Source: Psammoneis japonica (taxonomy: Eukaryota). Taken from it: a stretch of 64,000 nucleotides of DNA. The stretch's first letter is position 1. Each line of letters starts with the position of its first letter. The DNA lies in contig QPGO01000078.1 of NCBI GenBank assembly GCA_008632985.1, forward strand, positions 1-64,000, written 5' to 3'. The position numbers were made by a program, and so were the translations under genes. The notes under the pieces are model-generated. The model searched no databases. It had not been told where the DNA came from and was given only the letters and a program-made list of their open reading frames with translations. Positions 1 to 60,699 of this stretch are shown in pieces.

Positions 1-632
1 CTTCAAATCGAGTTTCAATAGCGCCTGCGGCAACGCCCCTCGCAGCACCATTTCCAATAATCCTGAAACACCGCTCCAATGGCTAGCTAACGCTCATTGA
101 CGACGGGTGAAGATTAGACTGGAGCCACAATGGTTTTAATACAAACCATAGAAAGAGGGATGCCAAAATACTCTAAGCTTTAAGGAGGGCTCTTCAATCT
201 GTCAAGAACGAACAGAAATTGCAACACAAGAGGTGAGTGACGAGTTCTACAAATGGAAAAAGTACCAAGGCATTTCTCATCCATTTTTTGCGTTTTTCAT
301 ACCTTTCTTTCACATATTCATTTATCATAGAGAATTGTAATGCGTGCTTTGTTGGTACAGCAGCAGCACAAGTGACGGCGGCAATGTCGACTGCCGGCTC
401 TTGTGGCTGTCATGGTCGATTTTTTTGTGTTGTGTCGGAGGGAAACGACTGACACGACGTAGATTTCTACGTAGAAATCATACCATGAGTACTTCAACAC
501 CACAATGTCCGTGTCAGTGCCTCGCACGAATTTACTTCAACATGCGAGTCACCCGGAGATCTGACACATCGGGTTGCGAAAATGGAGAAAGAATTGTGAG
601 AATTGCTCTCAAAACCACTTCCACATTATAGA

Positions 633-2951
633 TCAAGCTCGCTGCACTCGCAACCCCTTCCTCTCTCCCTTTCTTTCTCCCCTCTTCCTCCTTCTTTCTC
701 CTCTCCCCTCCCCCCCTCTCTTGGAGTCACTGACCCCCCCTAAACCCCGCATGGTTGCTGCAGGCCAGCACTGCTCCGACTTCGGCACTGGAGCATCCAA
801 TCCCTTCGAGGTTTCTTTGGCATTCAAAACTGCATCCTTTGTGTCGGTTGTAAATAGCGACAGTCCACTGTCTGGATCTAGATGCCCTCCAGCAGCGGGG
901 GCTCCATCAGAGGCAGCACACTTGTGTCGAGCAAACCAATCCTCGAGCAACGTGAGCCTTTTCTCCAGCGGGTGCCTCCAGAGACGAATGTGTTCCTGGC
1001 AGTGCTTCCACCTTGAAGAGTGCATGACATCGTGCATCTCCTCATCAGAATGCTTCTTGTTGTTTGGCGTGCCATCCTTCAAGGCTTGCATCACAGCTTG
1101 GCGGTCGGACCATTCGGCACATGATGCGGTTGCTTTGAGATCACTGACAGCTTGCCAACAATCAGCATGTTCTTTTCGGAGCGTTCTTGCAATTCGGTGC
1201 ATCCAATGAAAGAGCCCAAGGAGACAGATCATGTTCATTCCGAATGTCATCTTCCACAACTCCGACTCATTCGGCCAGGTGTCGCTGTGGTGGAGTTTTG
1301 GGCGTGCGTTCTTTCGCCTGGCAAACTGTTCTGCCGCGTGAGCAAAATCTTTTGCTTCCAATGTTGGGGTTGGGCAAGCGGTTCCCACCTGCCCCTTTTC
1401 GTTGCACATGGTGAACAGGCCTGCCACTCCGCCTGCTTTCTTTGAGCAGTTTTTGAGAATTTGAAAAGTGTGGTCGGATGCGACGCTCACGGCGGCTCCA
1501 ACCATCTGCAACAATCTCGTGCACCTGTCACACGAGGACGTGTCAAGAGCCGTCAATTTCGATTTGCCAGGTTCGTCATAAAGATCAAGAAGTGCTGAGG
1601 GTGATGGGCTGCACCCGCCCATCCAATCCTCGAAAGACACCCACTCTTTGCTTTTGTCGATGGCTCGGCAGCAGTGCTCTTTCTGGAGGTCCACGAAACA
1701 GGCGGCTCGCATTTGGTGCAGCATGTGCGAGAACTCACCCCCATTTGCATGCGTGACAACAAAGGACTCAAGGAGTCTTGCAGTTTCCTTGGTGAGATGC
1801 CACTTGTTGCTTACACTGGCATGCTCAGGCAATGTTGGATGTGCTGACTGTGGGCTTTTTGGCAGCTTGTGCAGCAGTCGACCGTCGTTGCCCTTGCATC
1901 GAATTTTGCATTTGTTGCATTCGCACCACATTGACACCGCCACATGCGTCTTCCCGCTGATGCAACACATTGGTGTCGCCCCACCATGTCGAGCAAAGTC
2001 CATGCGATCATGAATCATTTCCCCGTCACACTCTCCGTCAATGCAGGAGAGATAGATGTTAGGATGGTTCAGCTCCCAACAAACGATGCACACTGTCACA
2101 CCTTGCAGCTGATGGCAGCAACAATCAGGCGGTGAAGTGCAGTCATCCTTGGGAACTTGAAAAGACACTGCACCAGGAGGAAAAGCACCATCCTTGACCT
2201 CCAGAATCTCATTGAGCTTGGGGCTTTTTGCTGCAGCAACAGGACACTTGTTGCTGCCTTGTTCGAATCTCGGCTTGACAGAATCCAACAGACAACTGAT
2301 GAGAGCACTCACTGCAGCCGGGCACTTCGTCCTCTCCTCTGAGTTCTCACACTTTTTCACGCGTGCTCGAATCTCTCGTTTCAAAGTCTCAACCGAAAAT
2401 TTAGCATCAGTGGCCGACTTGTGGGCATTCTCGGCGCGCTCCATGGGGCCTGCAGCATCAGCCACCCCCGAATTCACCGGCTTGCATGTGTTGGCAACAC
2501 CTGGAGGAGGCAACACAGCTTGAGCTGCAGGTTTCTGTTTTCCAAAATGGTCTCGCATGGTTGACACTCCCTTTTCTGGAGCATCCAGAATCGTGTTGTT
2601 TGTTTCGTGAAGCTCTTTGTCACGTCGCTCTGCATCCATGGTGGCTTTGGTGACGTTCACTTGCAAGCACCTCTTTGAAAATTTGCATGTGGGATCATGG
2701 CCATGATGACATGCAGGACCTTTGTCACATCTCTTGCATGTCTTCGTTCTGTCGTCTACTCTTGGCACCTTACGCCCACTAAAATCGCTCTGATGCGTCC
2801 GCTTCTGGCGTGTGTGCGCTTGGCTTTTGCTCGCTTTGATGGAGCCTTTGCGTTTCTGGGATTGAACTCCCATGTTGCTAAAGAAAGGATGTAGCTGCCG
2901 CTCTGCAGCCACTTTTGTTGGAGCAGATTCTTCGGTTGCGTCCGTCATCAT
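633..2951 (-). pseudogene. Zisupton/KDZ-like (DUF6729-type) DDE transposase, TpA-hypermutated and C-terminally truncated
   Basis: 772-aa ORF with SDHTFQ...TMCNEKGQV...SDTWP...LGLFHWMHRI and a final SKRG, matching the remembered Zisupton-type motif order (DxTxK, NExGxI/V, YxD, xxFHxMxR, RGxSxxE). Only 2 Tyr in 772 aa, with many Cys/His. Homology ends in a purine-only run. Assignment is by motif recall. Confidence 0.7.
654..722. repeat. 69-nt pure pyrimidine (C/T) tract
   Basis: Only C and T from 654 to 722, at the point where the transposase is cut off. Confidence 0.95.
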
Positions 2952-3238
2952 CGAAGCACCAGCAGAGATTGTACTTTTCTCTCTCGTGGTTTTTTTTTTG
3001 TGAGAGAATTTTTCTCATCGCGTGAGAAGTCTGTGTTGTTGTGATTTTCCGTGGCGCGAAAGGAAGAGATTGTCGGTCTCCGCATCATTCTGATTCTTGT
3101 GTCTGCTTTTGGAGAGCTGTCTCAACCTCCTCGTCCCTAAGTGATTGCGTCAGATTTTCCAAAAAAATGTTAATTAATTGATCGGAAAGTCGAGGACTTT
3201 CCGAGAGTCTCCCTTAAGTAGAAATCCCAAATGCTGAA

Positions 3239-3250
3239 TTCTGATTGGCT
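3239..3250 (-). promoter_or_regulatory. AGCCAATCAGAA CCAAT box upstream of the transposase
   Basis: ttctgattggct on the + strand, about 290 nt upstream of the transposase ATG. The same 12-mer occurs at the ends of the 54.6-60.6 kb element. Confidence 0.45.
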
Positions 3251-3911
3251 CTCGTAGCGCCATTCCTAATCCTCCCTCGATGATGCTCGAATCCGAGGCA
3301 AACAAATGGCGCTCTAGGGCCACTGTATCTTGATGAGAATGCCATGAACACTCCCAACAATCAAAACCATGTTGTATTTCAATAACTTACACACGTTTCT
3401 ATCGAGACATCTGAGAAAAAATAAATGCTTAATTTCATCTCTGAGTCGAAAGAGAATGGCAAAAACATCATGCAAGAGCATTTCGACGAATTTTTCTGCT
3501 GCAGAATTGCTTTCAAAGCCTGGTAAGTCTCTTGCATGAGAAATCAATAAAAATCGATTGAATACTCAAAAGAATGATGCATGTTATGATTGTGATTGAT
3601 GTCGTTTACTGTATTGCATTCTTCGAAGAAGCCGCATCATGGTCTTTCGGGTTTTTTCGAGAAGGCCGCGGTTTCATTATTCTCGTTATTTCGATATCCG
3701 TATGAATACTTTATATTCAAAGCTTTCATCCGTTGCGCACGCAAGTCGAGCTCGAATTAGATCTCAACGGAAATCTAGAAATATAATGATATACATTCCG
3801 TATGTCAGGAATGTCTCCACGAAAGATCCAAGATCCAGGATCCGGAGGAGCCGAGGATCTGTCCATGTTTTCTTGCCACTTGTATCCATGCACTTGCTTG
3901 TCCCGACCCTG

Positions 3912-7425: not shown

Positions 7426-7878
7426 TCACTCTTTTGCTTTAGGTTTTGCATGCTTTGATTCTTGAACATATTTTCCCACAAAGTGCGCAAAAACGGGATG
7501 CAGTGGAATCTCAATCCACATCCATCTCGGAACGGGTATTTGTACATTGTTAAGGACAGCACCTATCAAGGTGAAAAGACCAATCAAATGCGACAAAATA
7601 ATGGGACGGGTTCCAATCACTGCCGCAACATAGCCACCAATTATGGATTGCCCAAAGTGTGCACAAAATACCGCAAAAAATGCTGGCAAGGGTAAGTTTG
7701 CAATGTAGTCGCCAAACGCCTCGGTGTCGTCAAACGAAACGCCATCGGGCAGCGGATACAGGTAGTTTACATTGAGCATAACGATGCTCATGTTGATGAC
7801 AGAGCCAAGAACGAGGCCGACAATGAGACCTGCAATGTTGCGGCGGACAGCATGAGTGGTGTCGTGGGTCGGCGTCAT
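7426..7878 (-). CDS. Four-TM hypothetical membrane protein of bacterial-like family
   Basis: Intronless 150-aa ORF with RNIAGLIVGLVLGSVINM...YPLPDGV...AHFGQSIIGGYVAA...P.W, a pattern recalled from small bacterial membrane proteins. Confidence 0.7.
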   Translation of the reverse strand: MTPTHDTTHAVRRNIAGLIVGLVLGSVINMSIVMLNVNYLYPLPDGVSFDDTEAFGDYIANLPLPAFFAVFCAHFGQSIIGGYVAAVIGTRPIILSHLIGLFTLIGAVLNNVQIPVPRWMWIEIPLHPVFAHFVGKYVQESKHAKPKAKE

Positions 7879-8003
7879 GTCAACAACAATGACCAAAGCA
7901 AGATCGATCCAAACAACGCCATAGCGAAGTGCTGGGTACGCATCGAGTAACTTCTGGATAACGTCGACTGACGCACCGCGCTGTGGCGCATGCGCAGTGG
8001 ATT

Positions 8004-8069
8004 TCATCGTGGGACCCCACAAATACGGAGGGACACGTAACCCGGAAATGTAGCAATTTTGATTTTTTG
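8004..8069 (+). repeat. Left TIR (TpA retained)
   Basis: tcatcgtgggaccccacaaatacggagggacacgtaacccggaaatgtagcaattttgattttttg. Confidence 0.92.
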
Positions 8070-8161
8070 CTCATGACGCGTGAGACAACAAAATAAACAA
8101 AGATGCCGTTGCGTTTGACACTCTCATTCTAGCCGCTGAAACACTCCTTCCGCAGTATATC

Positions 8162-9433
8162 ATGGCACCGACGTCTCTCAAGCGTAGTACGAACAGTCAA
8201 AAGGCAGAGGCTCCAAAACGACGCCGTTCTGCTTCCAACGAGCCTGCTGACAGTTCGCACGCCGATGCTGTTGCTCAGGCAGGCACGCGACTTGGGAAGG
8301 AGCTTGCCGATGCCAACCAGGCGGAAACCATGGTTCAACTGAGACGTAGTAGCCGTGCGCGAAGAATGACTGATGCTGGGGCTCAATGCCAAATGGCAAA
8401 CAGGCAGAGACGGGAGCGGAATCGACAAACGCATGATGAGGAGAATGTGACTGCCGAACAACCCCCCCGCGAGTCGGAAGAAGAAGGGGCAGTCGAGCCT
8501 CCACCCACAGCGGAAGGAGAGATAGACGATGAAGTGGAGGTGGAAGAGGAAGAAGGTGCTCCTCCAGCTGAGGAGGAAGAAGCGACTTCACCAGCAGCAT
8601 CTGCGGAAGAGGAAGGAAAGGAAGAAGAAGGTGCTCCTCCAGCTGAGGAGGAAGAAGCGACGTCAGCAGCAGCTTCTGCAGAAGAGGAAGGAAAGGAAGA
8701 AGAAGGCGCCGCAACACGCAATCCCTTTGAGCATCCCGAAGACTGTGCACCTAGAAATGAATCAAACATTGGTCGGCATGATGCGCAGGAGCTCAAAAGG
8801 AAGAAGAAAGGCACGAACAACATGACTGGAGCCAAGAAAAGATGAAACCTGACGGATCTTCCACGAAGTGCACGAGCTTCCTTCGACCACAACATGAGAA
8901 CGAAATTTGGCCGTATGACAAAGAATGCACGCGGTGTGCTTAAGTGCTGTGCACTCGATCCTGAAAGTGAGTTGTTCGAAATCAGCCCAAAAGTCAGGGT
9001 GACTCTTGCGATCGAGACTGATGTGAAGCATTTCAAATCAAACAAAGAAGCAGAAAGTGGTTGTCTCACAGAATGAGAAAAAGTGGACAAACTCAAAAGG
9101 GAGAGGCCGTTGCTAATTCTCGTATCCAACAGCAGGGAGGATGTGAGGAGCACCTTCACTGCAGTTGAGTCACACCCAAATGAAGCCAAGCAGTTGCACA
9201 AGGAAAAGAAAGAGGCCGGTGGGACAGCTCGGTTTTCTGACTTGCAGACTGCTGAAGTGCATGAGCTGCATGGCATGGGCAATGAAGATGAGGCAGAGGA
9301 ATTCATGAAAATGACAGTGGATCCGGGGAAAGAGGGTGAATGGACTGGATCCAACACTGGTCCTCGTCAAGCACTTGAAAAGCTGATGAGGCGACGGCAA
9401 TCAAACCCAGTGCAGCATTGCAACAATGCATGA
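8162..9433 (+). pseudogene. Accessory ORF of the TIR element (acidic, low-complexity N-terminus), interrupted by TGA stops
   Basis: ORFs 8162-8845, 8894-9076 and 9083-9433 share one frame and are separated only by TGA codons. Confidence 0.55.
8549..8710 (+). repeat. 75-bp coding tandem repeat (about 2.2 copies; EEGAPPAEEEEATSxAASAEEEGKE)
   Basis: Units start at 8549, 8624 and 8699. Confidence 0.9.
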
Positions 9434-9479
9434 GTCGCAACAATGTATGATGTGAATGTGCCTCTCTAATTGTTCTAGT

Positions 9480-12400
9480 CTAAGATGGTTGTGTGGATCG
9501 CTTCTTTCTTCGTGGGCTGGAGAGGCTGACGATGGAAGAATCGATGCTACCCAGAGTTGAGGCTGACACTTGACCAAGCACTTGGTCCTGCAACTGAGAC
9601 AAGTTCTCGTGCTGTGAGGCGGCAAAGTTGCGGGAACAATCCACAGTGCACTGCTGTCGGCCTCCAGACCTTGACTCTGTTGTCCCATGACAGAACGGCA
9701 TCCTCGTCTGCTTTTTCAGACGAGCCACATCAACCCCGTCCGATGCATGTTCCTTGTCAAACAATTCTTCCTTTCTCTTTTTTCGAGCATCGTAAAAACC
9801 AGGAACCTTGTTGAGATGCTCTCGACCCTTTGTCACCATGGTGAGATGCCAGTCTCGAGCAGCAGCAGTTTCCATGCCCTCAATGGCTACGTCTGCGGGG
9901 AAGGCCCGTTCGAATTTCTGCTTCTGTCGCCGTCCAGGATTCATTTGTTTTATCCTGTCTCTTGACACCTTGCATTCTGCCGAGAGAATTTTTTTAGTGT
10001 GCGCACCTTTTATTTTCTTCATCTCTTTCTTGCTGTCCGACATGTGCTTTTTGACAAAATTGTCACGAGCATCTTCAAGCTCTTCGAGGGTCGCTCGAGG
10101 TGGCTTTGGAAGTGCCTTTTGATTGACGGGGTTGGGGTTGCTCTTGTTGAAGGGATCAGCTTTGTGACAATCAAGGGCAGCCATTTCTCCCAGTTCAGCG
10201 AGGAAGCAGTTCATGGGATCAACTCGGTGCTTCCCTTTTGGCGTCCACATCGCCTGAGGTTCCTCCTTTCCAAGAATTTCCGGTGGGCTATCATGGCGCA
10301 CTCCTAGGCAGTTCACATCCCACAACTGACAGACCATGGTGCAAAACGTACGACCAAGATTTAGAGGCCTGTCACTCTTCGGAATGGAACTCAACAAGTG
10401 TCGCTTCGAGAGACGCCCTGGTTCTTCCTTCAGATTCGTGTTGCGGTTCACATTTCTTGTGGCAATGATTTTTTTCACATTCATCTGCATTCTGATGATA
10501 GAAAGTAACTTCTCAAAGTTAGATGTACATTGTAGCAGCATGGTGCATCAACTTTGTTGACGCACCTGTCAATGCACTCCTCTTTCAGTTTCGAGTTTCC
10601 CAAGTCTTGCGTGCCGCATCCGATTGAGGTGTCCTTCTGTTGGAATTCTTGGTGTCGATCGGCGCACACAACAGCTCCTTGTTCTGTCTTCTTGAACACC
10701 GCAAACTTCTTGAACATGGCTTTGTCTTTTTCAGACATGGTGCACTCTCGCTTTGCGTCTTCCTCGGCGATCCTCATGTGTCCAGTGGCATTTGCAATCG
10801 AAAAAATGTTGGCGGCAACAAACATGTCTCCGTCTCCATTGCCATCCCCTGCATCAGATTCAGCAACTTGGTGCATGATGCACATGAGGGCAGTGTTGAC
10901 ATCACACTCGTTTGTCGACTCTTCCGGGCATGCCGCCATTCACTTCCGGACGCAATCTTGGAGCTCAACAGGAGAGAACTGGATTTTGCCGTCCCTGTCT
11001 AGCTTTGACCCATTCACCCTCATCCATGCCATGACACCAACACAAACATGGGCGTTGAAACACTCAAACAGCTCGTCGTCGTGTTGGTTTGGGTTTGGAG
11101 GATCGCACAGCCACATGACCTTTTTCAAAGTCGGGCGCCATGCCAATGCCAAGTCCTGAAGTCGGATCTTTCCGATGTTCCTCATGCCTCTCCTTTCGGC
11201 GGACTTTTTACCTCAATGGAAACCTCCACAACAAACCAGAAGCATGTCACACACACCGGGGTTTTCAGTCTGCATGGACAACATTTGTGCTCCTGGCTGT
11301 CCATCCACACAGAAACACAAGTGTCCCCCTGCCATTGATGGTGCGTCGGGATTGCCATCCTTCAAAGCACACCAATCCTCGCCTGCGGTGTTCATCCAGT
11401 GTCATGCAGCACATTTTGCTCTCTCTTCCACTCCTTCCTTTTTTTTTGCTGGATTCTCTGGGATGCACGTGTCGGGGAAGGCATTGTTCAAATCGCACTT
11501 GTCCTCACCCTGGACATGAAGGATCCTCGTGCGCAGCTGAGGGGCATTGCAATCAATGAGACGATGCGTGCCACATTCTCCATGACCTAAATTCACATCA
11601 TCAACAACGCATCGTTTCCCTGTCTCAATGATGGTCTTCATTGCCGGAAAGTCCCCAAACAAGTCCATGAAGTTTCGAACCAATTTACCTTTCAGATTGT
11701 GCATGATCGTGCAGCGAGAATCTTGGGGCAAGAGATCTTCCGGTGTGAGTGTCCGTCTTGTTGTTTCCCATCTGTTTTGTTCATGAGAAAGTCCGGCCGT
11801 AAGCTCCTTTGCTTCTTCCTCCTTGTTCACTGTCACCTGCTGGGTTGTGAAATGGTGCATGGCAGTGCACCCGTCTGTGACAAGCCTTTTGTCAAGATTG
11901 TCCAAACTGATCCCCAACTGATCACCTTTCTGAATGTCGAGTTGGCGCACAAATTCATCATCTGCCTCAGCAATGTCCTTGCATCGAACGGAACTTCTTG
12001 AGAGGGAGAGACCCCAATTGTGGAAGCAAAAACTCTTGGTGCTTGACGATGACTTGGAAAGGACCTCTGCTGAAGTCCTTTGGAAAGGCGTTGGTTCATT
12101 GCTCGCAACATTTCTGATGAGCTCTGCGCAGACGAATGCCTTGTTGCGAATTCTCTTTGTCACATCTGTCACTTTTCCACAGTCTTGCTCTCTTGAGCCT
12201 GTCATCAGGTGCTCCATAAAAAGATTCAAGAGGCTCTTGTCATTGTTGGCAAACCCTTGTAGCTCATCTATAGAGCCGTTCCAATGGAGAGCCGGATCTC
12301 GGCATTCCGCTTCAGGCTGCACCAAGAAAGCATGAAGTGCCAAAGCAAGTGAACAAAAATCGGTCTTCACATCTGCAGAGAAACATCCCAACTCAGCTGC

Positions 12401-12877
12401 CCGCAAATTTGCAAAAAACGACCATCCGCGTGCACCAGTGGCAACTCCATCCCCCCCTGTCGCAACTGCAAAAACCACTTCGTTCTTTTGTTCACGCGAA
12501 GGAAGACACAAGAAATCATCAAGAGCTTCAAAGCCATCAATGTCAAAATGTGAGCATGAAGACTCTTGCTGTGTGACTCTAGTGCCAGACTCTCTGCTTC
12601 GTGGCGTAACTGCTCTTGACCCATCGGATTCTCTGGGAGCATTTTCTCGAGCTAGCGTGTCTCGGCAAGCAACGCACTTGTGGCAGTCAGCACGGCTGTC
12701 ACAGCTGGGACAAATGGGCCCTTCACAAAGTCGCTGTGCATGCATTTCTCCAAAGCAGTGCGGGTACAAATGGCACCCACACGGACGCATGGTGAAGCAC
12801 GTCTTGCTCTTCAGTGCTTCTTGACACGCCGTATTTCCACAGCTTTCTGGGGAGGCAGCCTTCCTTTTTGATGACAT
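9480..12877 (-). pseudogene. Large transposase-like protein with N-terminal RING-like finger (DUF6589-like DNxD...DG.P...GGFH...D..QE), fragmented
   Basis: CGCHLYPHC...CPSC, LGISLDNLD, CVDGQP, VCCGGFH and ADRHQEFQQKD occur in order across ORF fragments. Superfamily is uncertain. Confidence 0.55.
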
Positions 12878-13018
12878 GACAATCTTCCACAGTGCCAAAC
12901 AGTCTTCTTGTGGAGTGTGACAAGTGATTGGAGCAGAGGATTGAGCTGCACAACGACTGTGCACTCTCCATCGGACGCAACAGTGTTTGTGGTCATGCAT
13001 CTTTCATCGAGAAAAAAT

Positions 13019-13084
13019 CAAAAAATCAAAATTGCTGCATTTCCAGGTTGCGTGTCCCTCCGCATTTGTGGGGTCCCACTGTGA
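13019..13084 (-). repeat. Right TIR (TpA-mutated)
   Basis: Reverse complement is tcacagtgggaccccacaaatgcggagggacacgcaacctggaaatgcagcaattttgattttttg, 60/66 identical to the left TIR. Confidence 0.92.
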
Positions 13085-14673
13085 GATTGGTGGGTAGACT
13101 GCGTGCCGGTGACCCTTGCCACCTTTCGAGCGGTGAGCATCTTTGTTTTGGTCCAATGCAGCCTGAACCCCTGAAAAAGGGGTGGACAATTTCGGACCGC
13201 CTCGTGCAACACAAGGTTGCTCTTGGTGGCAGTTGTGAGGTTCTTTGGGCACGGGGACAATCCTGCATCAGGGAATGGTCGGACAAATTCATGGAACCCA
13301 CCCCACTGTCTCTTCTCAATGGCCACAAAGAGAGCAATGTCAATCATTGAATCGAGCTGCAGTGAAGAGTTGTCACTGTTGTCAATGACTGTGACAGGCA
13401 ATGAGGACAATCCCTCCTGGATGTCATCACATGCATCAAATGCACCGTGTTCTTCAGCTGCAGGGTCTTCTTCTCAACAATGACACCGGATTGCACCCCT
13501 CCCATCTGACACTTCAGATCCAATTGTCCAATCTTGAAGATGTGTTCCTGTCCTTTCAACCACCCCTGAGCAAGTTTCTTCCCTGCCTTTGTCTGGCTCA
13601 ATGCCTCATGTTTGCTGTTGAGGCATGCCTTGCACTGGGGGTTGTCTTCTGCAGCGCTGGCATTGCTGCGCCGTCTGCCACTGGCTTCTCTGGCAATGAC
13701 CCAACTTCGTCTGGGAGCACTCGGCAATTTGACAGTTGCTGATGGGGTTTGAGTTGCCAGGAGTTGGTGTGGTCATTTGCACAATGCTGTCTGGCAGACC
13801 ATGGTCTGGCTGCTGCATTGTTGATCACAGTTCTCTTGCTTTGATCAACAGCAAAAACATGATGGATTGCTGGTCTCCTTCATTTGTGCTGTGCTGTGCA
13901 GTGCAGAAAGAAAACTGCATCCACTGAAATGAATGACCAAGCCATGGCCCATTGACATTTTGGTCCCCGGCAACAGAGTTGGTGATGGTCATGAGAAGGC
14001 ATCTTTGTCGCCCAAACTTGACTTTGTGCGACACTGACTGTGTGGTGTCAATGTCAGCCCAGGTGGACCAAGACTCAAGAGTGGTCAGTCGCTGCTTTTT
14101 TTGCTCAAATTTGGTGGAACAGCTCTTGATTTGTATGATTTTTCCTGAATTTCACAGTCCTTCACAATGGTGAAAACAACAAGCCACAAAGTCTGTGATG
14201 GAGGTGGTCTGATCACAAACTCTTGTTTGTTTGTGTTCCTTTTGCATCAAAGATTACACACACATCAAAAGTTTGCAGATGCCCCACTGCATTTTCAAGA
14301 AAGATCAATGATTGCATCATCATCATGCTTTGATTGTGGTGCACAATGTTCTCATTTCCTTGTGCAATCCGGTGTGAATGCAAGCAATTTTTGCACTCAA
14401 AAATGAACACTGCAAATGATCTCATTCAAATGCCATGACAATTTTAGGATGAATGCGGCAATGACCCCCTTGATGGTTTTTACATGGGGCCAGGGTCAAC
14501 TTGGAATTAAGGTGGTGCAGGTGCAAAGGTGGGCCAGATTCTGCGTGTGCAGAACTTAGCACATTTTCTACACAAATTGCCAAAGTCACCTTGCCAACTT
14601 GAGCCCTTTCCCAGACGATGGAAACTTGAACATTTCACACAACGAAGTGTCCAGGCTGCTCAGTTTCACTCCC

Positions 14674-14843
14674 CTCAACTTGTTCATTGAGAGAAACTGC
14701 AAGTTTTCATGCATTTTTGAAGATGTGCACTGAGTCCACTGGCAATCAGAAAGGCACCAAAATTGGGAAGTTCAAGTTTCATGGAGCTGTGGCAAATGAT
14801 GAATGCCTGAAAACTTGCAGTTTCTCTCAACAAACAAGTCAAG
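14674..14843. mobile_element. 170-bp MITE-like element with 42-bp inverted arms
   Basis: 14674-14715 and the reverse complement of 14802-14843 differ only by two CA/TG swaps and one transversion. Confidence 0.7.
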
Positions 14844-14859
14844 CCATCAACATGTGGAG

Positions 14860-15830
14860 GTCTCTTTTTGCACAAGCTTGCATTTTTTTAAAACTGGATG
14901 CTTTGCACAAAATGCACGCACTCGTTGCCAAAATAAAAATTTCAGTGACAGGCCCAACTTCCAACTTTGTCCATTCACAACAAGACACCACAGAGTGCAC
15001 AGACAATGGTCATGACCATGCATGATCTTGGACTTGTTGAGTGTGGACATGTCCACAGCCAGTCAAACACCAATTGTTGGCATTTCCTCCTGGAAAGTTG
15101 TGGCTCACCTCCCACAAGCAGTGTGATTTTGGAGAAAAACAGTGGCACTTTGAACCTGACAACTGCACCAAATCCAACAACTGGCATTTGAAGGTTGAGA
15201 AGTGCAGTTCACACACAGGTCTGACAGCCCTGATGGGGGCTGGACAAACTTGCAACAAGTGTTTTGGGGTTCTCAGAGGTGTCTCCGCAAAATGACAAGG
15301 GCAGTGCACGAGAAAATTCAAAATCACAAGCTTTTTGAGAAAACATCTCTGCACATCAATCCTGCCTTGAGGATGGATTGTTCATTTGCGGTTGATTTTT
15401 TATTTGGAGCTTGCACTTTTCCACAAAAACCCGGATTCCTTGCACCAATTGCACGCGTTCACCAAAACAACATTTCAGCAACAGGTCAAACTTTGTCTGT
15501 TTGCAAGACAACACAGAATGCACATGTGATGGTTGCGACCATGCATGATGTGCAGCTTGGCAACTGGGTGTGCAGACATGTCCACAGCTGGTCAAATGCC
15601 AGTTGCTCCTGGCATTTCATGGAAAGTTGTGGCTTGTCCACCACAAGCAGCCAGCCCGATTTTGGCAGAAAATGGTGGTTTGTCACGCACAACAACCAAG
15701 GCAAATGCAACAATTGGCATTTGAAGGTTGACATGGTGTGCAGTTCACACAGAGGTCTGACAGCCCTGATGGGGGCTGGACACACTCATGTGTTTGGGGG
15801 TGCTCAGAGGCGTCACAAAATGATGGTTCT
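14860..15830 (+). repeat. Diverged tandem duplication, unit about 530 bp
   Basis: Shared blocks in both halves, e.g. gaccatgcatgat, gacatgtccacagc, ggaaagttgtggct, ggcatttgaaggttga and ggtctgacagccctgatgggggctggaca. Confidence 0.8.
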
Positions 15831-16177
15831 GTTTTTGCCTTGGACTTAACTGCAGACACCGCATGGCTTGCATTTGTGAACACACAACAAAAGAGTGAGT
15901 GCAACGATCTGTCAATGCACCAGTTTTCTGAACACAATCCACCATGCTTCTGTTCTTTTCATGTTTTACACTGTTGATCACAATGCTGTTCACTGGATTG
16001 ACTGGTGTTGTCATTGTTTGACAAAAGCTGTCATAAAAATGGGGCGCAAATGCTTCAAGGCAAATGCATGAGAGGGGGCATGGGAATTGCCAATGCACCA
16101 TTTTCATTCATGCATTTAGCGTGCACATGTGATGAAGCATCATTTGTGCTTTTTCCCCAGGAACTCACGCTTCCCGT

Positions 16178-16464
16178 GGAACAACATGGCAAAAGGTGGC
16201 AATCCCGGGGAATTTTGGGGATTCCCACGGTGAAACCAAACTGAGCATTAAAAAAAACAGTGCATGACAATGACCCATCCTTCAATTGCTTTCTGCTCTG
16301 AACTTGCAGCTGCACATTGTGGAGCAACATGGCAAAAGGTGGCAATCCTGGGGAATTTTGGGGATTCCCATGGTGAAACCAAACTTGGCTTTAAAAAAAA
16401 ACAGTGCGTGACAATGATCCATCCTTCAATTGCTTTCTGCTCTAAACTTGCAGCTGCACATTGT
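16178..16464 (+). repeat. 143-bp tandem duplication (2 copies)
   Basis: Copies start at 16178 and 16321. Differences include three CG versus TG/CA and one TA versus TG. Confidence 0.9.
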
Positions 16465-16844
16465 CAGTGTGCTTTCATTGACCACTCAGTGGTCTGGTTG
16501 GATGGAAGCTTTGTGCATTTGTCCCATCTGTCCTGTTCATCTCCTGAAGATGTGCAGATGGTCACCTGAAGACAGACGCACTGTTGCACCTGCGTGTCTT
16601 GATTTGTCACACATGCCGGTGGATCACATGGCAATGCTGGCAGCTTCGGCCATTGCGTGGTCAATGATGTGCACACGGGTTGATCTTTTTTCAAGAGTTT
16701 TTGCCCACACCATCTAAACCAGTGCAGCAAGAGGCACTGACTGTGACAACATGGAACACAACTGTCTGGGTTTCTTCTGGCCACTTCAACACTTGAGCCA
16801 GGCATCCTGATCCTGCCTGCATTGCTGTCCCTTTGCTCTGCCAA

Positions 16845-18100
16845 ATGTCAAACTTCAACACCCCAGATGAAGAGAAACAGCAACACCAACATGAGCCTTT
16901 GGATTTGTCTGCATTGCTGACAGCTTTGGAAGCTGGAGATGAAGATGTGATTTCTGTTTGGCAACAACTGGTTGAATTTTTGACTCTTGGAATGGTGCAC
17001 AAGCCAGTCCTTCTGGCAGGAATGTTGGCTTTCTCTGTGGAATTGACAAGAGTCACTTCCAGATCATCACATTGCAAAATGATGGACCTGCTGGACAGTG
17101 AGTGGATGACATTTTCGGAAGCCAACTTTTCCATGGTGTCACAAAATTGGGAGGCTTTCATTGGCCAGAGAATGGCTCTTGATGCCAATGTTGCAACTTT
17201 CTTCAACACAACCAGACAAGAAGCCCTTGACTTGTCCACAAGCATTTCCAAAAGCCCAAATTGAATGCTGGTAATGGCTTGACACCTGTGCAATTGTGCT
17301 TGTTTGACAAGATGGCAAACTTTGCAGACAAGGTGCATTCATGTCCCAAAAATGGTGAAATTAAAAATGCTGTGCTTGGATTTACTGGCGTGCAGCTGCT
17401 GCTGTGCTTGGCATGCCATCTGAGACTCAACAAGACAGGCTTGCTTTCTGCAAAGCAGTCTGTGGGAGTGTCAGAGAAGGAAATTCATCCGCAACACCGG
17501 CCTCTGGGACAAATTGGCCCCCTTCAATTTGCTGTCATTTTTGAGAAAGAGGAGTGGTTTGACAAGAAACCTGGTGTTGTTGTGTTGCCAGTGATGGAGG
17601 CTGATCAAGCCTGGAACTGGAATGGTGGCCATGCAAGATTGTCATCATGTGTGAGGATGTTGCCAGAAAAGCCAGCGCTTGAGCCATTGCAAGCAGGATT
17701 GGTCTAACGTTGATGAGCCGAACCCAATTCAAGATGCAAGTGCTGGCAACATCAGAAAATCAGCCTCACTTTTGTGCCACGTAACCAAAGCATCAGCCTT
17801 TTTCTTGGAACACAAAAACAGGCCTGATGGTGGAGGGGGTGCTGTGCTTTGGAGAAAGTTCCATGTTGAACTTGAAATGACTTGACTCACCTCAGCTGTG
17901 GTGATGCATCTCCTCCCAGAGGACAACCTTTGAGGCAGGATCTTGGTGGTGATCCCCAGAGCAGAGTGTCCAGAAGGAAAGATTGTGGTGATCAAGGTGA
18001 AGACATCATTGCAGTGCACCCAGACCCGTTGCTGCTTGCTTCCAAGTCATCTGTTGACTGGACTTGATGCTTCCATTTCCCGATGATGGCAGAAGCCAAG
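16845..18100 (+). pseudogene. Degenerate copy of a diatom hypothetical multigene-family protein
   Basis: WFDKKPGVVVLPVM...WNGG and HPDPLLLASKSSVDW resemble a recalled diatom family. Frameshifted and mutated. Confidence 0.3.
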
Positions 18101-18888
18101 CCATCTGAAATTCCAGCAACAGGAGACTGCCTTGATGACACAATTTTCCTTCCAATGAAGCATCCAAAGCATCAGTTTTCTTGAGCTTGTGTTGGATTGA
18201 ATCCATTGCATGGCAATGCCTCTTGCCACCACTGCAGAAACTGTTCAGTTGCAGCAGCTGATTGTTTCTGCTCTCACGGCTGCTGCCATTGTCCCTTGCA
18301 TGCAGGTGCTCCATGTGGACTCAAAAAGGCTGTTTTTGACTGACTCCTTCTCCAATGACTCACTCAAGAAAAAACTCAAATGACGACAAAGGATGGCCTC
18401 TTGTTGTTGATTGCAAGCAATTGGATGATTTTTGTGACAGTTTGATCAGTTGTGAATGCTTGACTGGTCCCCAAGATTGTGCACTTGAAGGTTTTGCAAA
18501 GATTGAAGAGGCACTTGAGAAAACTGCCAGGAACTTTTGTGCTTGAATGTCACCAAAATGCCACACTTTTGTGTGCAATTCATTTGTTTTTGCCTCTCCA
18601 TCTTCCTCCCTTGTGGTTGCACCCATCTGTTCTGATGACTTGGCATCCCACGTTGTGTGGCTGGAGCAGGTTGCAAGCAGATGAGACATTGTGTCATGAA
18701 AAGACAAAATGTCCAACAACATCGATTGTGCCACTGCAGCCCAGCACAGACTTGCTGTCAATGACAATGGTGGAACACAAGAATGTGGGAAAGCATGTGG
18801 CATCAAGAAGAAGATTGAAGTCCAGATGGTCTGTCAATTGCCACAAGACACTTCAGAGAGTGGAAGGCTGAATGCTTGCACACCGATG

Positions 18889-21800
18889 TGTGACATGGTC
18901 TTCAACACATTCATGCATCAACATGCCTCAAGCTGTGAGACACAAACACCCGACAAAAGACCGCCATCAATGAATGGGCCAATCACAGATGACACAACAA
19001 TTTTGAAGTTTGCCAAACAGCTGTTTCTCATTGTCTCCATGAACCAAAAGAGCATCTGCTGTTTGCCTGCAAAGACTTTGAACAATGGCATCAAGAATGG
19101 CTGAATTGTTTCACCAAACTCAGAGGAAACCACTGATTTAAAGATGATCCAGTGTGGGGTGAGATTCTCTCATGCTTTTGATCATTTCAAGAGTTGACTG
19201 GAGATGATGTGAAGGAAATCAATGAGAGCACATGGTTGCATCTGGGCTCAGTGCAGTGGAAACAGACATCCCAAGCAATGAAACCTGCGTTGTTGCCACC
19301 AATCTTGACAGGAATGCTGTCAATGATGGAATTTTCAAGAAGGTGCCAGAAGAAACACATTCAAAATCTCTTGCACAGCCACCTCCTCCAACCCCCACAG
19401 CCACCCATTGGCCATGTGGTCCTGCTCTGAGAGCAAGCAACAACCTCAAATGGGAAAAAAGTGGAACACCAGGTGCAAGCATGTGGATTTTCAAGATCAG
19501 ATGTCCAAGGACATTTTGTCTGCAGCCTGTCCAGATGCTCATGTCAAGCAAGCTGGGGATGAACCAACAGGCATGTGGACTCACTTTTCAAGCTTTCCCA
19601 TGGCCATTGCCCTTTCTGATGATGAGCCTCAATGAGAACATGGAGATGAAGAAAGCCAGTGGCACTGTTGACATTTTTGAGGTTTCTGTGGATGATTCAG
19701 AGTTGATGAGGTCAGGAGTGATGGTCATTGGGTGAGGTCAGCCTGTGTTTTACAAGTTGAGTCCATTGTCTTGAGGCATCTGCTCATGAGAAAAATGCTT
19801 GTTTCATGTGGCTCCAAGGAGAGAAACCGGTGTTGTCAACTTTCCTGTTGCTGTGATGGGTTTTGTTTGCAAGAAAATTCTAAGAATCAGTCAGAGGATG
19901 TGTCACAGATGACCCAGTTCCCAGCTTTTGTGCTGCAAGACAATGGCTGTGCACCACAAGCTCCAGCAGGGGGAGAGCACAACTGTGAGTCTGGTTTTCT
20001 CAACAACTTTGGCTGCAGAGACAACTGGGTTCTTGTGGTTCTGTCTAGAGTGACAACAAGAAAGGGACGTTGTGCATTTGCTCAGTGCAACCTCAGCTGA
20101 TTGACAGCACCCTGAAAGACCTTGGCTTTGTCAACAAAAATGGCTCTCCTTGGAAGGGCATGACCACCAGAGATGCTCCTGCATTGTCTGTGTGTCTCAT
20201 TGGGCCCAATTTTGGCAGCCCAAAATTTGATTGTGATCTCAACTGTCACTTGGTCATGGGCAAAGCAAACTTCCTGGAGAAGTCTGCTTGACCTGAAATT
20301 GCATGCTCAACTCACCAGTTGGCTTGTTTCACCACCAACATGAAGCTGTCACACAGAGCAGCCCTCAAAGACAAAGGACACTGACTCAGGACACAACTGA
20401 CCAAACAGATGGTGAAGGGGGGCACCTCTCTTGAGGTTGTGCAATGCAGCACAGAGGACAACAATTGCAGCAGGCAGACAACAAGATGTGCTAAAGATGC
20501 ACATTGTGAGAAGATTTCGCAGTTGACTGGAGATGACATTTTGACCTGATGGTCATGTGTGTCACTCCAATTGCTGTTGCCAGAAGACTCAGTGGATGTT
20601 TCTTCCAGAAGTGGAGATTGATGACCGGAAGCATCATCCACAAATCAGCCTTGGTGTTTGACTCATGACTCTCCCTCTCAAACAAGAAGAGAAGGAGGAC
20701 AAACAGTCACCAGCTCATGAGGGCTTTACGACCAATTTGGAATGGATCAGCAGCCAATCCTTTGGCAAACTGGTCGGCAAGCCAGGCAGCAGAGCTGACA
20801 GGCTCAATCTTGATCTCTAAAGCTTCAACCTCATGTGAAACCATTGGTGCAAAATGCTGGTGCACTTGGTTCATGGGGACAATTTAGGCACAAAAGCAAA
20901 TTGGAGGCAAGCAGCATTGTCTTCATGTGCAACAGATCATGGCAGGTTGGCAGTGTTGATGGGTGAGGCATTGGCACCATTGTTGGCCTCTGTGGGAATG
21001 CCTTGGAGTGGGCAGTTGCCTCATTGCAAGCACCCGGTTGCACAAAGACATGCGTGTCAATTTCTTTCAAGATCTTGCAAAGGGGGATGAGATCACACAT
21101 TGCTTGGGAAGAGTGCAACACACTTGGCTTCCATTGCAGAAAGTGCTGCCAGGGTCTGCAGCTTGGACACCCAGATGATGGGACATCTCAATGGATGACA
21201 TGACCGGTGCATGACTTGACAGAAGTGGGGGTTTGTCCATCTTCAGTGCTGAAGAGTCCTGCAAAATGAGCATCAACACAACAATCATGCCAATGAACAG
21301 CAGCAGTGGGTGCTGGGATGAGACCCTTGCATGTCAGCAGTGTCCTTCAAGCACCAAAGAATGCACTTGATGGCAACAGCATGGGAGGCCTTGGGAGCAA
21401 AGGTAAACCAAGCAACTTGGTGGGCAGTGCAGGCAATGTCTGGGCAGCTGTTGGATGCCAGACACATCAACATGCCAACCATGGAGTGACAGTCACAAGG
21501 TTCATTGAATGGCAGGCCTTCAGAATTGCTGTCAACAGGTGCAGGAAGTGCAGGAGCAGGAGCTCCATTGCAGTTTTCCATCTTGGCGGTGTGCAGCACT
21601 TTCTCAATTGGGCCAGGTTGGGTTGGCAGGAATTGGCTGTCCTTGAGTTTCTGGATTTTGACACCCAAAAAGTCACCAACTTTGCCTTCATCATGCAGGT
21701 TGAAGACATGGCATTGCTCATCATTGGAGACACCCAATTTGGCAATCTCAGCTTCAAGTTCTTCAGATGATGCTCTGGCAAATGCCTCTCTTGAGGTTGT

Positions 21801-22900
21801 GCAATGCAGCACAGAGGATGACAATCGCAGCAGGCAAACAACAAGATGTGCCAAAGATGCAAATTGTGAGAAGATCTCACAGTTGACCAGAGATGACAAT
21901 TTCACCCAACGGTCATGCATGTCACTCCAGCTGCTGTTGCCAGAAGACTCAATGGACATTTCTTCTGGAAGCAGAGGTCAATGACCAGAAGCATCATCTG
22001 TGAATCAGACTTGCCATTTGACCCATGACTCACTGTGTTCAGGGCCCACCTGACAATGTCAAGAGCTTTGAGTGCTTCATGGATGCTGATTTCTGTCAAG
22101 TGGAGTGGAGCCCCTCTGCACTGGTCATCAAAATTGCAGACCCAGTTGGCCCTCAGCAACAGTGAGAGCAAATGCTGTCTGGCCCTGTTGGCTGCAACTT
22201 GGCACATGAAGGCATCTGTGCACCTGTTGAAAGAGATCAACAAGGTGCATTGTCCAGCAACAATCATGCCAAGCGTCTGCTTCAATTTTTTTGAAAAAAC
22301 TTGGCTGCACTCAAAATTGCAAAGGTGCCAAAGATGAGGCCAAGAACATGTCATGTCAACAACATCTGCCACCATTTTCACTCTGAGGATGCCAGCGGAC
22401 ATTTGCCAATCAAGGTCATTGGCATCAAGCTCCAGCACACTGACTTCTTGACCAAAATGCCAGACCCATCAATGTTTGTGCACCAACTTGACCTTTCACA
22501 TGAGGAAGTGTGACATTGTCTGTGCACTCAAGCATCAACATGCCTCAAGCATGAAAACCCAACAAAAAACCACCATCAACAAATGACGAGCCAATCACAG
22601 ATCACACAACAATGACAAGAATGAGGCATCTGGTTCAAATCAAGAATGGAGCATGCTTCCATTCTTCTTTTGTGCAATCAAGAACTTCTTGTTGTTGACA
22701 AGCCTTTGCACTGTGTTCATCTGCATTGGCTTTGGCACAAATGCAAGGCACTTCTTGTTTTCATGCTCTTCTGGTTGAATGTTGGCTGGCACAGTTCTGA
22801 TTCTCACAATTTAGAAATTGAAGAATCTGATCACTGCTTGGTTGCCTTTGCTGTTTTATGGCTCCATGGTGCAAACTGCCACAAACCCTGAACCAAGCAT
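18889..22900 (+). mobile_element. Ty1/copia LTR retrotransposon remnant A (RT + RNase H), internally deleted
   Basis: LTR-like direct repeats start at 18889 and 22509 (tgtgacat...gcatcaacatgcctcaagc...gccaatcacagat). A purine tract gaggaag precedes 22509. RT: QPQLIDS.LKDLG...GKANFLEKS..PEIA. RH: DADF, GAPLHWSSKLQTQLALS, PKMRPRT.H, DFLTK. Right end is approximate. Confidence 0.8.
20398..22032 (-). mobile_element. Ty1/copia remnant B nested in reverse orientation inside A
   Basis: ~250-bp direct repeats (about 20424-20672 and 21783-22032) flank RT (DEGKVGDFLGVKI...MVGMLMCLASNSCPDIA..AHQVA.F) and the RH end. A purine tract gagaggg abuts the downstream LTR. Confidence 0.8.
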
Positions 22901-22919
22901 TTGACTGCCCATGCTGCCC

Positions 22920-23335
22920 ATGATGTGTCATCCCAAACCACACATGACCAAGTCTTCCACATGTGCAGTGCATGTGAACATGCATTGCAAACAAATTCTG
23001 CAATGGAGTGCTCCATGTGTTGCAAGCTAACTCCACAACAGACTTCTCTGCAACTGTTCCATGCCAGCATCCCAAATTGTGCATGACCAAGTCTTCTGCA
23101 TGCACAGAGTGTGTGGAGATGCACTGCAAACTGATTCTGCAATGGCCCACTCCATGTGCATTGCAGCCAATTCTGCAACAGACCACTCTGCAACAGGCTG
23201 AGATGGAATTGAAACTTCCAGGTGCAGGTGCAGAGTCATTCTGTGCTGACATCCCAAATGATGCATGACCAAGTCTTTCACATGTGCAGATCATGTGGAC
23301 AGCATGTGTTGCAAGCCAACTCTGCAATGAGCTGC
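22920..23335 (+). repeat. Degenerate tandem repeat (three catgaccaagtctt-anchored units)
   Basis: Motif at about 22944, 23082 and 23264, each followed by similar ttgca...ctgcaatg sequence. Confidence 0.7.
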
Positions 23336-24226
23336 TGCCACCTCCAAGTGTCCATGGCTGTCATGCTTGTTGACCAAAGTCTTCTCCAACTTGTCAGTGC
23401 ATTCATTCACCAGCACAGCTGCTGCATTTGTGTGGGGAGCAACCTTCTTTCCCCTTGGCTTTGCAACAGCACCCAGCAAGTCCTTCTTGCAGAGAGCTCC
23501 TGCTGTTTTGGAGGCAGCGGTGGCTTCTGAGGCAGTGCCAAAATGTGATCAGGTGCAGGGACCGGCAGTGTTGTCAGCTTGGTGTGCGGCGTGCATTGGA
23601 GCTTTGGCCCTTTCTCTGGATGGGTCCCACTCTGGAGACACTGTTGACGAATCTTGTGACAAAATCTCATCATGACAACTTGGAGCCCTTCCCAGAGGGG
23701 TGTGAGAGCATGACAAGCTGCTGCCAGCTCTCATTCAACTGAGCTTGTTTGATGTTGCACTGTTTTTATTTTTGCTTTTTTGTGCATTGCAGTGAGCAGA
23801 GCAACTGCAGAAAAAAATCAAAGTTTACATGGGGCACCTGTGTGCAAGGGACAATGTGTTTTTCATGCATGAGCTGGGGACAAAAGGCAAAAGGGAGAAA
23901 GGCAGGAAAACGCACAAAAAAGGTGCACACCATGCTTCTGAAGCCTGATGGAAGCACATGACATGGGCAGGAGGAGGGGAAAATGGGAAAAGAAAGTTTT
24001 TGTTTTTCACACAACTGCCACACCAGCAGAGGCCTGTGCAGAGTTTCTGCTGGATCAACGTTTGTGATGATTGGTGATTGGTGCCATGCAGTGGTGTGAG
24101 GCTGAATGTGGGCCGGCACTTTCAACACCGGAATGGCATTGAATCACATTGTTGTGATTCACAAACAAGAAGAAGCCAACTCTGCCAGCAACAAAAAGGA
24201 ACACAGTTGGATGAACAACATCAAAC

Positions 24227-26900: not shown

Positions 26901-27329
26901 CTCTGACTTGGCAGCCATTTCAGAGGAGAACAGCAGGCAGGAGTGGCCATTGCCAGAAGGTTGGTGGTGCCAAGAACCCACCATGTGACCAGAGAATGTC
27001 CTCTTGGTGCTCAGTCATGATGCTCACCCCACTTTCACCTGTCACCTATCACATGTGACAAGCCCAGTTCTCATTGTCCCTCAGCAGCTTGCCAATGATT
27101 GCAGTGAACTCAAGTTCACCAGTGGCTTTTCTTGAGTGATTTGGGGTGCAGTGGTCTTTTGCATGCATTGGTTGTTGTCCAGGCAGTGTTTGGATTAGGA
27201 ACATGTGGGATTCTCTCCATGAAAGGCTCACAATCTTTGAAGCAGTGAAAGATTGTCTGTTTTGTTCTTTGACATGATTTTGTTGCTGGCTGCATTGCTG
27301 TTCACTTGCTTTGTCAGAGCTGTGAACAC

Positions 27330-28080: not shown

Positions 28081-28199
28081 ATGCACCGTGCATGCCACCC
28101 AATGCCACTTCAACCACTCTGCCAATTTCTGCAGCCAGCATCATCTGACTCTGCCAATGAATGATCTTCATCAAGACAATCCTTCCTCACATGCCCAAC

Positions 28200-30106: not shown

Positions 30107-30350
30107 GAAGAGTGTCAGAGCTGACTGACACCAGACAAACTAAAACTCAGTGAGAATGCTTGCCTGCATTGGCTGTGGGAACAATGTGAGAATCCCTGTC
30201 AGCAGCAAATGATGTGCTGTTGTCCAAGCATGACGCCCCTGCACTCTGTGTCAGTTTGCACTCTGTCAAATTTGCACTCTGGGGTGCACAGAAAAAAGTG
30301 TGGTCGAGCTAACTGACAACAGAAAAGCTGAAACACAATGAGAATGCTCA
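30107..30350 (+). repeat. Continuation of the ~170-bp minisatellite
   Basis: agtgtcagagctgac...gcctgcattgg...gtcaaatttgcactctggggtgcaca. Confidence 0.8.
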
Positions 30351-46959: not shown

Positions 46960-52700
<5,741 letters not shown>

Positions 52701-60620: not shown

Positions 60621-60621
60621 G

Positions 60622-60698: not shown

Positions 60699-60699
60699 G

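What the first reader, a model, noticed from the sequence alone, without database searches (positions are those of the whole stretch)
8004..8400. Mutation fades at TE edges next to host genes
The gene-proximal TIR and first ~350 nt of the element keep TpA (cagtatat, cgtagtacg, cgtagtagc), while the TIR bordering the repeat block is fully converted. Similar recovery occurs near 3100-3330, 30570-30800, 46960-47270, 52490-52740, 54600-54850 and 61970. This suggests targeting by chromatin domain rather than by TE sequence.
Basis: partly seen in the sequence, partly recalled or inferred. Interest (0 to 1): 0.72.

Follow-up and report, generated by a model that had tools for sequence, protein, structure and literature searches.

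The report
Position-gated TA erasure in diatom transposons
In a diatom genome a mutation process rewrites TA to TG or CA inside jumping genes but usually stops a few hundred bases short of normal, gene-type DNA, so the same sequence is erased or spared depending on where it sits.

Summary
Confirmed. Window 8004-13084 is a TIR transposon (4-bp TSD) of a pennate diatom. Its gene-side end keeps 11 of 14 former TpA sites, against 37 of 109 in the middle; the block-side TIR has lost all three. The same end in two sister copies beside TpA-poor DNA keeps 1 of 14 and 1 of 13. Among 40 copies of a related 251-bp MITE, 0 of 16 with normal flanks are converted, against 14 of 14 inside TpA-poor blocks. 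In a second family, terminal retention is 48/68 sites beside normal DNA and 4/28 beside blocks, with similar interiors. Position therefore gates the mutation. 'Next to host genes' is too narrow: some ends stay intact beside blocks, some spared ends have no gene near, 3' ends show little effect, and four of the seven listed edges could not be shown to be TE DNA. Best reading: an A>G mutator acts on silenced domains and is held back about 150-400 bp by open chromatin. The chromatin and the enzyme are inferred; RIP-like leakage remains a rival. TpA hypermutation is in print for Bigelowiella natans (preprint, no boundary analysis); this scan noted it, and edge gradients, on other DNA of this genome.

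The parts
8004..13084 (.). Focal DNA transposon, TIRs of about 66-69 nt, two convergent decayed ORFs
   Evidence: sister copies on C98 and C24, distant relative on C77
8000..8003 (+). Left target-site duplication GATT
   Evidence: 4-bp TSDs also at most MITE copies
13085..13088 (+). Right target-site duplication GATT
8004..8355 (.). Spared zone: left TIR and start of ORF1, 11 TpA kept (8024, 8038, 8051, 8094, 8130, 8156, 8158, 8185, 8188, 8347, 8350)
13019..13084 (.). Right TIR, all three TpA converted, one CpG lost
7429..7881 (-). Single-copy host ORF (151 aa, hydrophobic, no Pfam family); its start codon lies about 120 nt from the TE end, head to head with TE ORF1
   Evidence: (features 0.92 to unnamed bacterial clusters, recognition 2655); expression not shown
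13089..30586 (.). Old TpA- and CpG-erased block (TpA o/e 0.05, CpG o/e 0.13). Its first 300 nt keep CpG (33/kb against 6/kb) but not TpA: perhaps the former edge, before the TE moved it away from the gene
   Evidence: the former-edge reading is inference from 10 CpG
757..3283 (-). TE1, 5' half of a 4.77-kb element without TIRs; the last ~146 nt keep TpA beside a methyltransferase gene
1..747 (+). TE1 3' part, inverted against 757-3283, TpA largely kept
54640..60743 (+). TE3; left ~200 nt keep TpA beside host DNA; right arm 59300-60743 keeps TpA although a TpA-poor block follows (exception)
47269..52496 (.). TpA- and CpG-erased block; borders real, TE status of the recovered DNA not shown
60798..61750 (.). 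Short TpA- and CpG-erased block before the 3' end of a PP2C gene

Best explanation
Shown: a mutator converts TpA to TpG or CpA (A:T>G:C) in each copy after insertion, far faster than CpG decays, and its reach depends on position. Long elements are hit from the inside. Short elements are hit only when they sit in or beside an already erased block. Ends facing normal DNA are usually spared over about 150-400 bp. Inferred: the target is a silenced chromatin domain, of the kind that carries CG methylation and H3K9me/H3K27me3 on diatom TEs. The domain nucleates within long foreign or repeated DNA, merges with neighbouring domains and is held back by open chromatin, mostly that of host promoters and genes but for a time also the element's own promoter end. 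Inferred and weakest: the chemistry is A-to-I deamination of DNA by a TadA/ADAT-type enzyme that prefers TAY. At the focal site the TE landed about 120 nt upstream of a host start codon, at the old border between gene and block; the block's domain then covered the element up to the promoter's zone.
For: Twin TIRs differ only by neighbour. Same left end: 11/14 beside the gene, 1/14 and 1/13 beside TpA-poor DNA; the C77 relative keeps 4 TpA in its TIR-like start beside normal DNA. MITE, 40 copies: both flanks normal 0 of 16 converted (0/286 sites), both poor 14 of 14 (202/249), mixed 3 of 10 (26/180). Among copies with no transversion from the young reference copy, 0 of 10 with two normal flanks and 6 of 6 with two poor flanks are converted. 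69 of 87 MITE substitutions are A>G at TpA, 2 are CpG>TpG. TE1, 13 heavily mutated copies: last 150 nt 48/68 kept beside normal DNA (9 copies) against 4/28 beside blocks (4 copies), per-copy p=0.007; interiors 35/196 and 9/88; the gap holds within the YTAR context (40/59 vs 10/33, two further copies included). Tandem siblings on C34: outer 5' end 6/7, inner 2/6. TE3 left ends: 3 of 4 with normal flanks keep 7-11 non-YTAR TpA in 250 nt, 6 of 6 with poor flanks keep 0-1. DNA with no second copy found is also erased. A decayed LRR gene copy is erased. TE methylation overlaps repressive histone marks in Phaeodactylum (PMC9998398, section 9).
Against: No chromatin, methylation or RNA data for this genome. 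'Normal flank' is defined by TpA o/e of at least 0.3, a cut I chose after seeing the data, so part of the result only says that the mutation is regional. Exceptions: C110 keeps 14/14 terminal TpA beside a block; TE3's right arm in the window keeps TpA beside a block; the old copy L101 is fully converted beside normal DNA; L063 likewise; L050 keeps only 3/8 with a long ORF 52 nt away; the C98 right TIR is converted beside DNA that is only partly converted. TE1 3' ends show no clear neighbour effect (14/31 vs 25/42, summed by hand from seven rows). The flank-versus-retention correlation over 13 copies is not significant (p=0.07), nor is near-half against far-half in mixed MITEs (17/48 vs 9/42, p=0.17). 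No deaminase joined to a chromatin domain was seen among 10 PF00383 matches.
Confidence: 0.55

Rival explanations
1. RIP-like homology recognition with leakage. Duplicated DNA above a length threshold is paired and mutated, the effect falls off at the ends of the shared stretch and leaks a few hundred bases into neighbours. Ends beside unique DNA fade, ends beside other repeats are hit from both sides, and a 251-bp MITE escapes unless a neighbour's leakage reaches it. No chromatin border is needed.
For: It predicts the MITE and edge patterns as well. Tandem copies are hit more than most dispersed siblings (C5a, C34a/b). RIP leakage into single-copy neighbours is described (PMC3105345, passages). 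A length threshold and a bias to linked duplications in RIP are recalled, from no call.
Against: Seven of nine near-identical, dispersed 4.8-kb copies with normal flanks are almost untouched, while the three-copy focal family is heavily hit. In the C5 tandem one unit is hit and its twin hardly. Erased stretches with no second copy found exist, though the search misses diverged copies. The B. natans target region is reported as single-copy.
Confidence: 0.2
2. Element-intrinsic protection: TE termini are spared because of their own promoter, bound transposase or host factors, whatever the neighbour.
For: C110: 9/9 non-YTAR sites kept in the first 400 nt against 44/127 inside, with a block as neighbour. 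TE3 right arm. CCAAT-type motifs at 3241, 54758, 60320 and 60361, all within spared zones (the promoter reading is recalled). In lightly mutated copies the peak lies 800-1200 nt from the 5' end.
Against: The same termini are converted in most block-flanked copies, and the two TIRs of one element differ. It can be a contributing factor but not the whole cause.
Confidence: 0.13
3. Survivor bias and age: mutation is blind to position, but insertions near genes are younger, or lineages in which mutation reached a promoter were removed by selection.
For: MITEs in blocks are somewhat older: 7 of 14 differ from their nearest copy by at least one transversion, against 4 of 15 with normal flanks. Young TE1 copies beside blocks can be intact (L120, L130).
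Against: Age cannot differ between the two ends of one copy. Interiors of normal-flanked and block-flanked TE1 copies are about equally mutated while their ends differ. Selection on each TpA inside a dead TE end is implausible (inference).
Confidence: 0.1

Closest known systems
TpA hypermutation of integrated viral DNA in Bigelowiella natans (Mettrop et al., bioRxiv 10.64898/2026.01.13.699255; abstract, results and discussion read, parts 1-3 of 5; supplements closed)
   Same: TpA>TpG/CpA spectrum, regional, on foreign and silent DNA; TpA-poor sequences enriched for TE domains; an ADAT-type deaminase proposed
   Different: Here a stramenopile, with DNA transposons and near-complete erasure over 17 kb. 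The preprint measures rates directly but its main text has no hit for boundary, edge, border, promoter or diatom. Position dependence of one sequence and the width of the spared zone are not treated there.
Repeat-induced point mutation (RIP) and RIP leakage in ascomycetes (PMC3105345, passages only)
   Same: Works like it: a TE-directed mutator with a dinucleotide target, mutated blocks with transition borders, spill into neighbours
   Different: Opposite direction (RIP is C>T and makes TpA). Dependence on homology is not shown here, and many identical long copies are unmutated.
Gene-side LTR hypomethylation of mouse ETn/IAP elements (Rebollo et al. 2012, PMC3491417, abstract only)
   Same: The two ends of one element differ, the promoter-side end escapes silencing, and euchromatin is said to spread from the gene into the element
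   Different: There a reversible methylation state is measured; here a permanent sequence scar is read and the chromatin is inferred
DNMT5a-dependent CG methylation of TEs in Phaeodactylum tricornutum (Hoguin et al. 2023, PMC9998398, abstract and section 9)
   Same: TE-restricted silent domains in a pennate diatom; slow CpG loss in the same blocks fits 5mC decay
   Different: 5mC deamination explains CpG loss, not TpA loss; the section read reports no TpA effect

Membership tests
B. natans-type TpA hypermutation | Changes almost only TpA>TpG/CpA | tested here: met
   69 of 87 substitutions in 21 MITE copies; direction fixed by unconverted copies
B. natans-type TpA hypermutation | Regional, on foreign or mobile DNA, host genes spared | tested here: met
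   TpA o/e 0.05-0.13 in blocks and TE body against 0.55-0.57 in gene regions
B. natans-type TpA hypermutation | About 1000-fold rate, on in only some lines | not testable with these tools
   needs mutation-accumulation lines
B. natans-type TpA hypermutation | Same enzyme (ADAT2-like proposed) | tested here: inconclusive
   TadA/ADAT2-like ORFs are present (labels by eye), as expected for tRNA editing; no link to DNA shown
RIP | C>T transitions (CpA>TpA) | tested here: not met
   TpA is destroyed, CpA/TpG gained
RIP | Triggered by duplication; both copies at risk | tested here: inconclusive
   7 of 9 dispersed near-identical 4.8-kb copies with normal flanks almost intact, tandem copies hit more, one twin spared
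RIP | Premeiotic timing, RID methyltransferase | not tested
   not searched
Named 4-bp-TSD DNA transposon superfamilies (Sola, Academ; TSD lengths recalled) | Recognisable transposase of the superfamily | tested here: inconclusive
   ORF2 of the C98 copy: no Pfam hit, no homologues, features 0.96 to DUF6589 clusters at recognition 2252, below the tool's 2300 mark. Left unassigned.

The most novel reading that the evidence does not exclude
Diatoms have a chromatin-guided DNA adenine mutator that writes the extent of silent domains into the sequence and is excluded by open chromatin at about 100-bp resolution. Multi-copy TEs would then be a fossil map of past chromatin borders, and a TE's fate would depend on where it lands and how long it is, not on being recognised as a repeat.
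Probability: 0.4. Interest if true: 0.85.

Novelty: new variant of a known kind. Interest (0 to 1): 0.66.

Why it matters
How the TpA mutator picks its targets is left open in the one paper I found on it. Identical sequences at different positions give a natural reporter assay: 0 of 286 sites changed in one setting, 202 of 249 in another. That narrows the models to a chromatin domain or homology with leakage, gives a length scale (about 150-400 bp) for how genes are shielded, and names exact loci at which accessibility or methylation mapping would decide. It also extends the process to a stramenopile.

Tried and rejected
RNA evidence: no RNA holder was listed, so expression of the neighbouring gene is open. 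Ancestral TpA richness as the cause: inferred sites are about 40/kb in the spared zone and 25/kb in the middle, and retention per site still differs. Slow YTAR context as the cause: rejected for the focal end (10 of 11 non-YTAR) and for the TE1 contrast, but most TE1 terminal sites are YTAR, which inflates the raw end-versus-interior gradient there. Inheritance from a mutated donor: C98 and C24 carry different products at 11 of 27 sites where the window keeps TpA, so most changes came after insertion. Sister copies for the edges at 30.6, 47, 52.5 and 62 kb: none usable. Enzyme: PF00383 gave 10 matches, by eye dCMP deaminase, TadA-like, ADAT2-like, RibD-like, a deaminase fused to a 2OG-Fe(II) oxygenase, one more deaminase and a TpA-poor decayed copy; none singled out; ADAR/ADAT1-type families were not searched. 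TE superfamily: unresolved. Literature: eight searches listed no paper on TpA hypermutation in diatoms or on its borders; subscription journals are mostly outside the library.

Full report
Setting. The window is the start of contig C75 of a 91.4-Mb assembly. Named relatives of its PP2C gene are mostly from pennate diatoms (Mayamaea, Fragilaria, Phaeodactylum, Cylindrotheca, Fistulifera). The window is a mosaic: gene regions with TpA o/e 0.55-0.57 and blocks in which TpA is nearly absent and CpA/TpG are in excess. Younger elements have lost TpA but keep much CpG (focal body: TpA 0.13, CpG 0.65); the old block at 13.1-30.6 kb has lost both (0.05, 0.13).

The observation. The element is 8004-13084, bounded by TIRs and a GATT duplication. 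The TIRs differ at three TpA sites, kept on the left and converted on the right, and at one CpG. The first 351 nt hold 11 TpA, ten in the fast context; random placement gives P=0.0013 for either end and 0.043 for any such window. Using sites inferred from the three copies, the window copy keeps 11/14 on the left, 37/109 in the middle and 2/12 on the right. This site set misses positions where all copies changed alike, so middle retention is overstated. The change point lies at 8188-8398. The left neighbour is a single-copy 151-codon ORF whose start is about 120 nt from the TE; its expression is not shown. Of the six other edges listed, two are TE ends with sister copies (3137-3283, 54640-54841). 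Four could not be shown to be TE DNA.

Sister copies of the focal element. On C98 the left end sits in an 800-nt TpA-poor remnant and keeps 1/14; on C24 it sits in a block and keeps 1/13. The C24 right end keeps 3/6 in its last 190 nt, where it abuts the end of what looks by eye like another element, not a gene (3/12 against 7/90, p=0.09). The C98 right end keeps 0/12 although its flank holds TpA; that flank is rich in YTAR survivors (14 of 22 TpA in the first 600 nt, against 17% in gene regions), so it is itself partly converted. A 72-79% relative on C77 keeps four TpA in its TIR-like start beside normal DNA. C98 and C24 differ in product at 11 of 27 shared lost sites, so conversion followed insertion.

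A 251-bp MITE with the same TIR is the cleanest test. Two searches (each scored only the best 40 of 55 and 70 candidates) gave 40 distinct copies after dropping repeats of one locus and one duplicated locus; a few listed copies were not fetched. With flanks classed at TpA o/e 0.3 over 500 nt, 0 of 16 copies with two normal flanks have any conversion (0/286 sites), 14 of 14 with two poor flanks have many (202/249), and 3 of 10 mixed copies have three or more (26/180). In the first 21 copies scored, 69 of 87 substitutions were A>G at TpA and 2 were CpG>TpG. Restricting to copies with no transversion from the young reference copy leaves 0 of 10 against 6 of 6. Against this, block copies are on average somewhat older (7 of 14 vs 4 of 15 with a private transversion), and in mixed copies the half near the block is not significantly more mutated (17/48 vs 9/42).

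TE1, a 4.77-kb element without TIRs, gave 35 5' ends. In subfamily A (17 rows; one duplicate and three young copies dropped) the 13 heavily mutated copies keep 48/68 TpA sites in the last 150 nt beside normal DNA (9 copies) and 4/28 beside poor DNA (4 copies), per-copy p=0.007; at 150-420 nt the groups are equal (20/44, 8/20), and interiors are 35/196 and 9/88. Two of the nine share one flank. The rank correlation is weaker (p=0.07). Most terminal sites are YTAR, but the contrast holds within that class (40/59 vs 10/33). Flanks of the nine: methyltransferase, MraW, TIR-domain, LRR and SET-domain ORFs for five, a 904-codon ORF without Pfam family for one, and no supported gene for three. Whole-length profiles of 26 copies (22 in families of two or more) show that lightly hit copies between normal flanks mutate from inside, peaking 800-1200 nt from the 5' end (C330, C11); that 7 of 9 dispersed young copies with normal flanks are almost intact; and that the young copies hit hardest are block-flanked or tandem (C110, C172a, C5a). 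Exceptions: C110 keeps 14/14 sites in its first 400 nt beside a block (9/9 vs 44/127 non-YTAR); the very old L101 is converted beside normal DNA (not site-scored); 3' ends show no clear neighbour effect (14/31 vs 25/42, hand sum; row L110 repeats L115).

TE3 (54640-60743). Of ten left ends, 3 of 4 with normal flanks keep 7-11 non-YTAR TpA in 250 nt, and 6 of 6 with poor flanks keep 0-1; these relatives are only about 70% alike, so raw counts were used. Right ends are mixed: three with clearly normal flanks keep TpA (one is young throughout), three with borderline flanks do not, and three of four beside blocks are erased. The fourth is the window's own right arm, which keeps TpA over 59300-60800 and carries two CCAAT-type motifs.

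How it most likely works. Shown: direction, dinucleotide target, post-insertion timing, dependence on position and, less firmly, on element length. Inferred: a silent chromatin domain is the substrate and open chromatin the barrier. In Phaeodactylum, TE CG methylation coincides with H3K9me2/3 and H3K27me3 (PMC9998398, section 9), and CpG decays in the same blocks here. In mouse, the gene-side LTR of an ERV can escape methylation (PMC3491417, abstract), which is the same geometry. The chemistry is least certain. Products lean to the strand with TAY (88:29 and 58:35; sites recur across copies, so the counts are not independent), which fits a TadA-type deaminase (preference recalled), but no candidate enzyme stood out. 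The main rival is RIP-like homology detection with edge fall-off and leakage, which predicts much the same map; intact identical long copies and erased DNA without a found second copy weigh against it without excluding it.

What is known. The spectrum matches the B. natans preprint (10.64898/2026.01.13.699255; parts 1-3 of 5 read; its supplements are closed and may bear on borders). Its main text has no hit for boundary, edge, border, promoter or diatom. Eight literature searches listed nothing on this process in diatoms. This scan's earlier notes report the process and single-locus edge gradients elsewhere in this genome; they gave me the preprint and the YTAR control. What this report adds is a multi-family test of position dependence with its exceptions.

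Verdict. New variant of a known kind; interest 0.66.

Noticed in passing
window:13089-13390: First 300 nt beyond the right TSD keep CpG (33/kb against 6/kb deeper in the block) but only 1 TpA: possibly a former domain edge, read on two clocks
   Followed up: partly
window:1-747 and 757-3283: The two parts of TE1 are inverted against each other, with about 1.5 kb missing compared with full copies; rearrangement or contig-start artefact
   Followed up: partly
G000:C34, C5, C172 (L103, L105, L110): TE1 (4.77 kb, one ORF of about 1050 codons, no Pfam hit, no TIRs, ragged ends) forms head-to-tail tandems and one inverted pair; family unknown
   Followed up: partly
L172:313-1785 (-): Zinc deaminase domain fused to a 2OG-Fe(II) oxygenase in one ORF; a TpA-poor decayed relative of the deaminase part seems to lie in L177
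   Followed up: no
L183:946-2119: LRR gene copy with TpA erased, so host-type gene duplicates are hit too
   Followed up: partly
L032:4804-6555 (-): ORF2 of the focal family resembles DUF6589 clusters by features (0.96) with no sequence hit; may hint that DUF6589 is a transposon protein
   Followed up: partly
L088, L089, L121, L131, L052 flanks: Several TE1 ends abut short low-complexity runs very rich in CTAG/TAG
   Followed up: no
L036:29-1591: A 1.55-kb element with about 30-nt TIRs and TTAA at both ends, partly converted, right of the C24 copy
   Followed up: no
window:44738-45901: 96-bp tandem repeat inside a long host ORF keeps normal TpA, so tandem repetition alone does not bring erasure
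   Followed up: no
window:27370-28090, 30110-30360: Degenerate 170-180-bp tandem repeat inside the erased block
   Followed up: no
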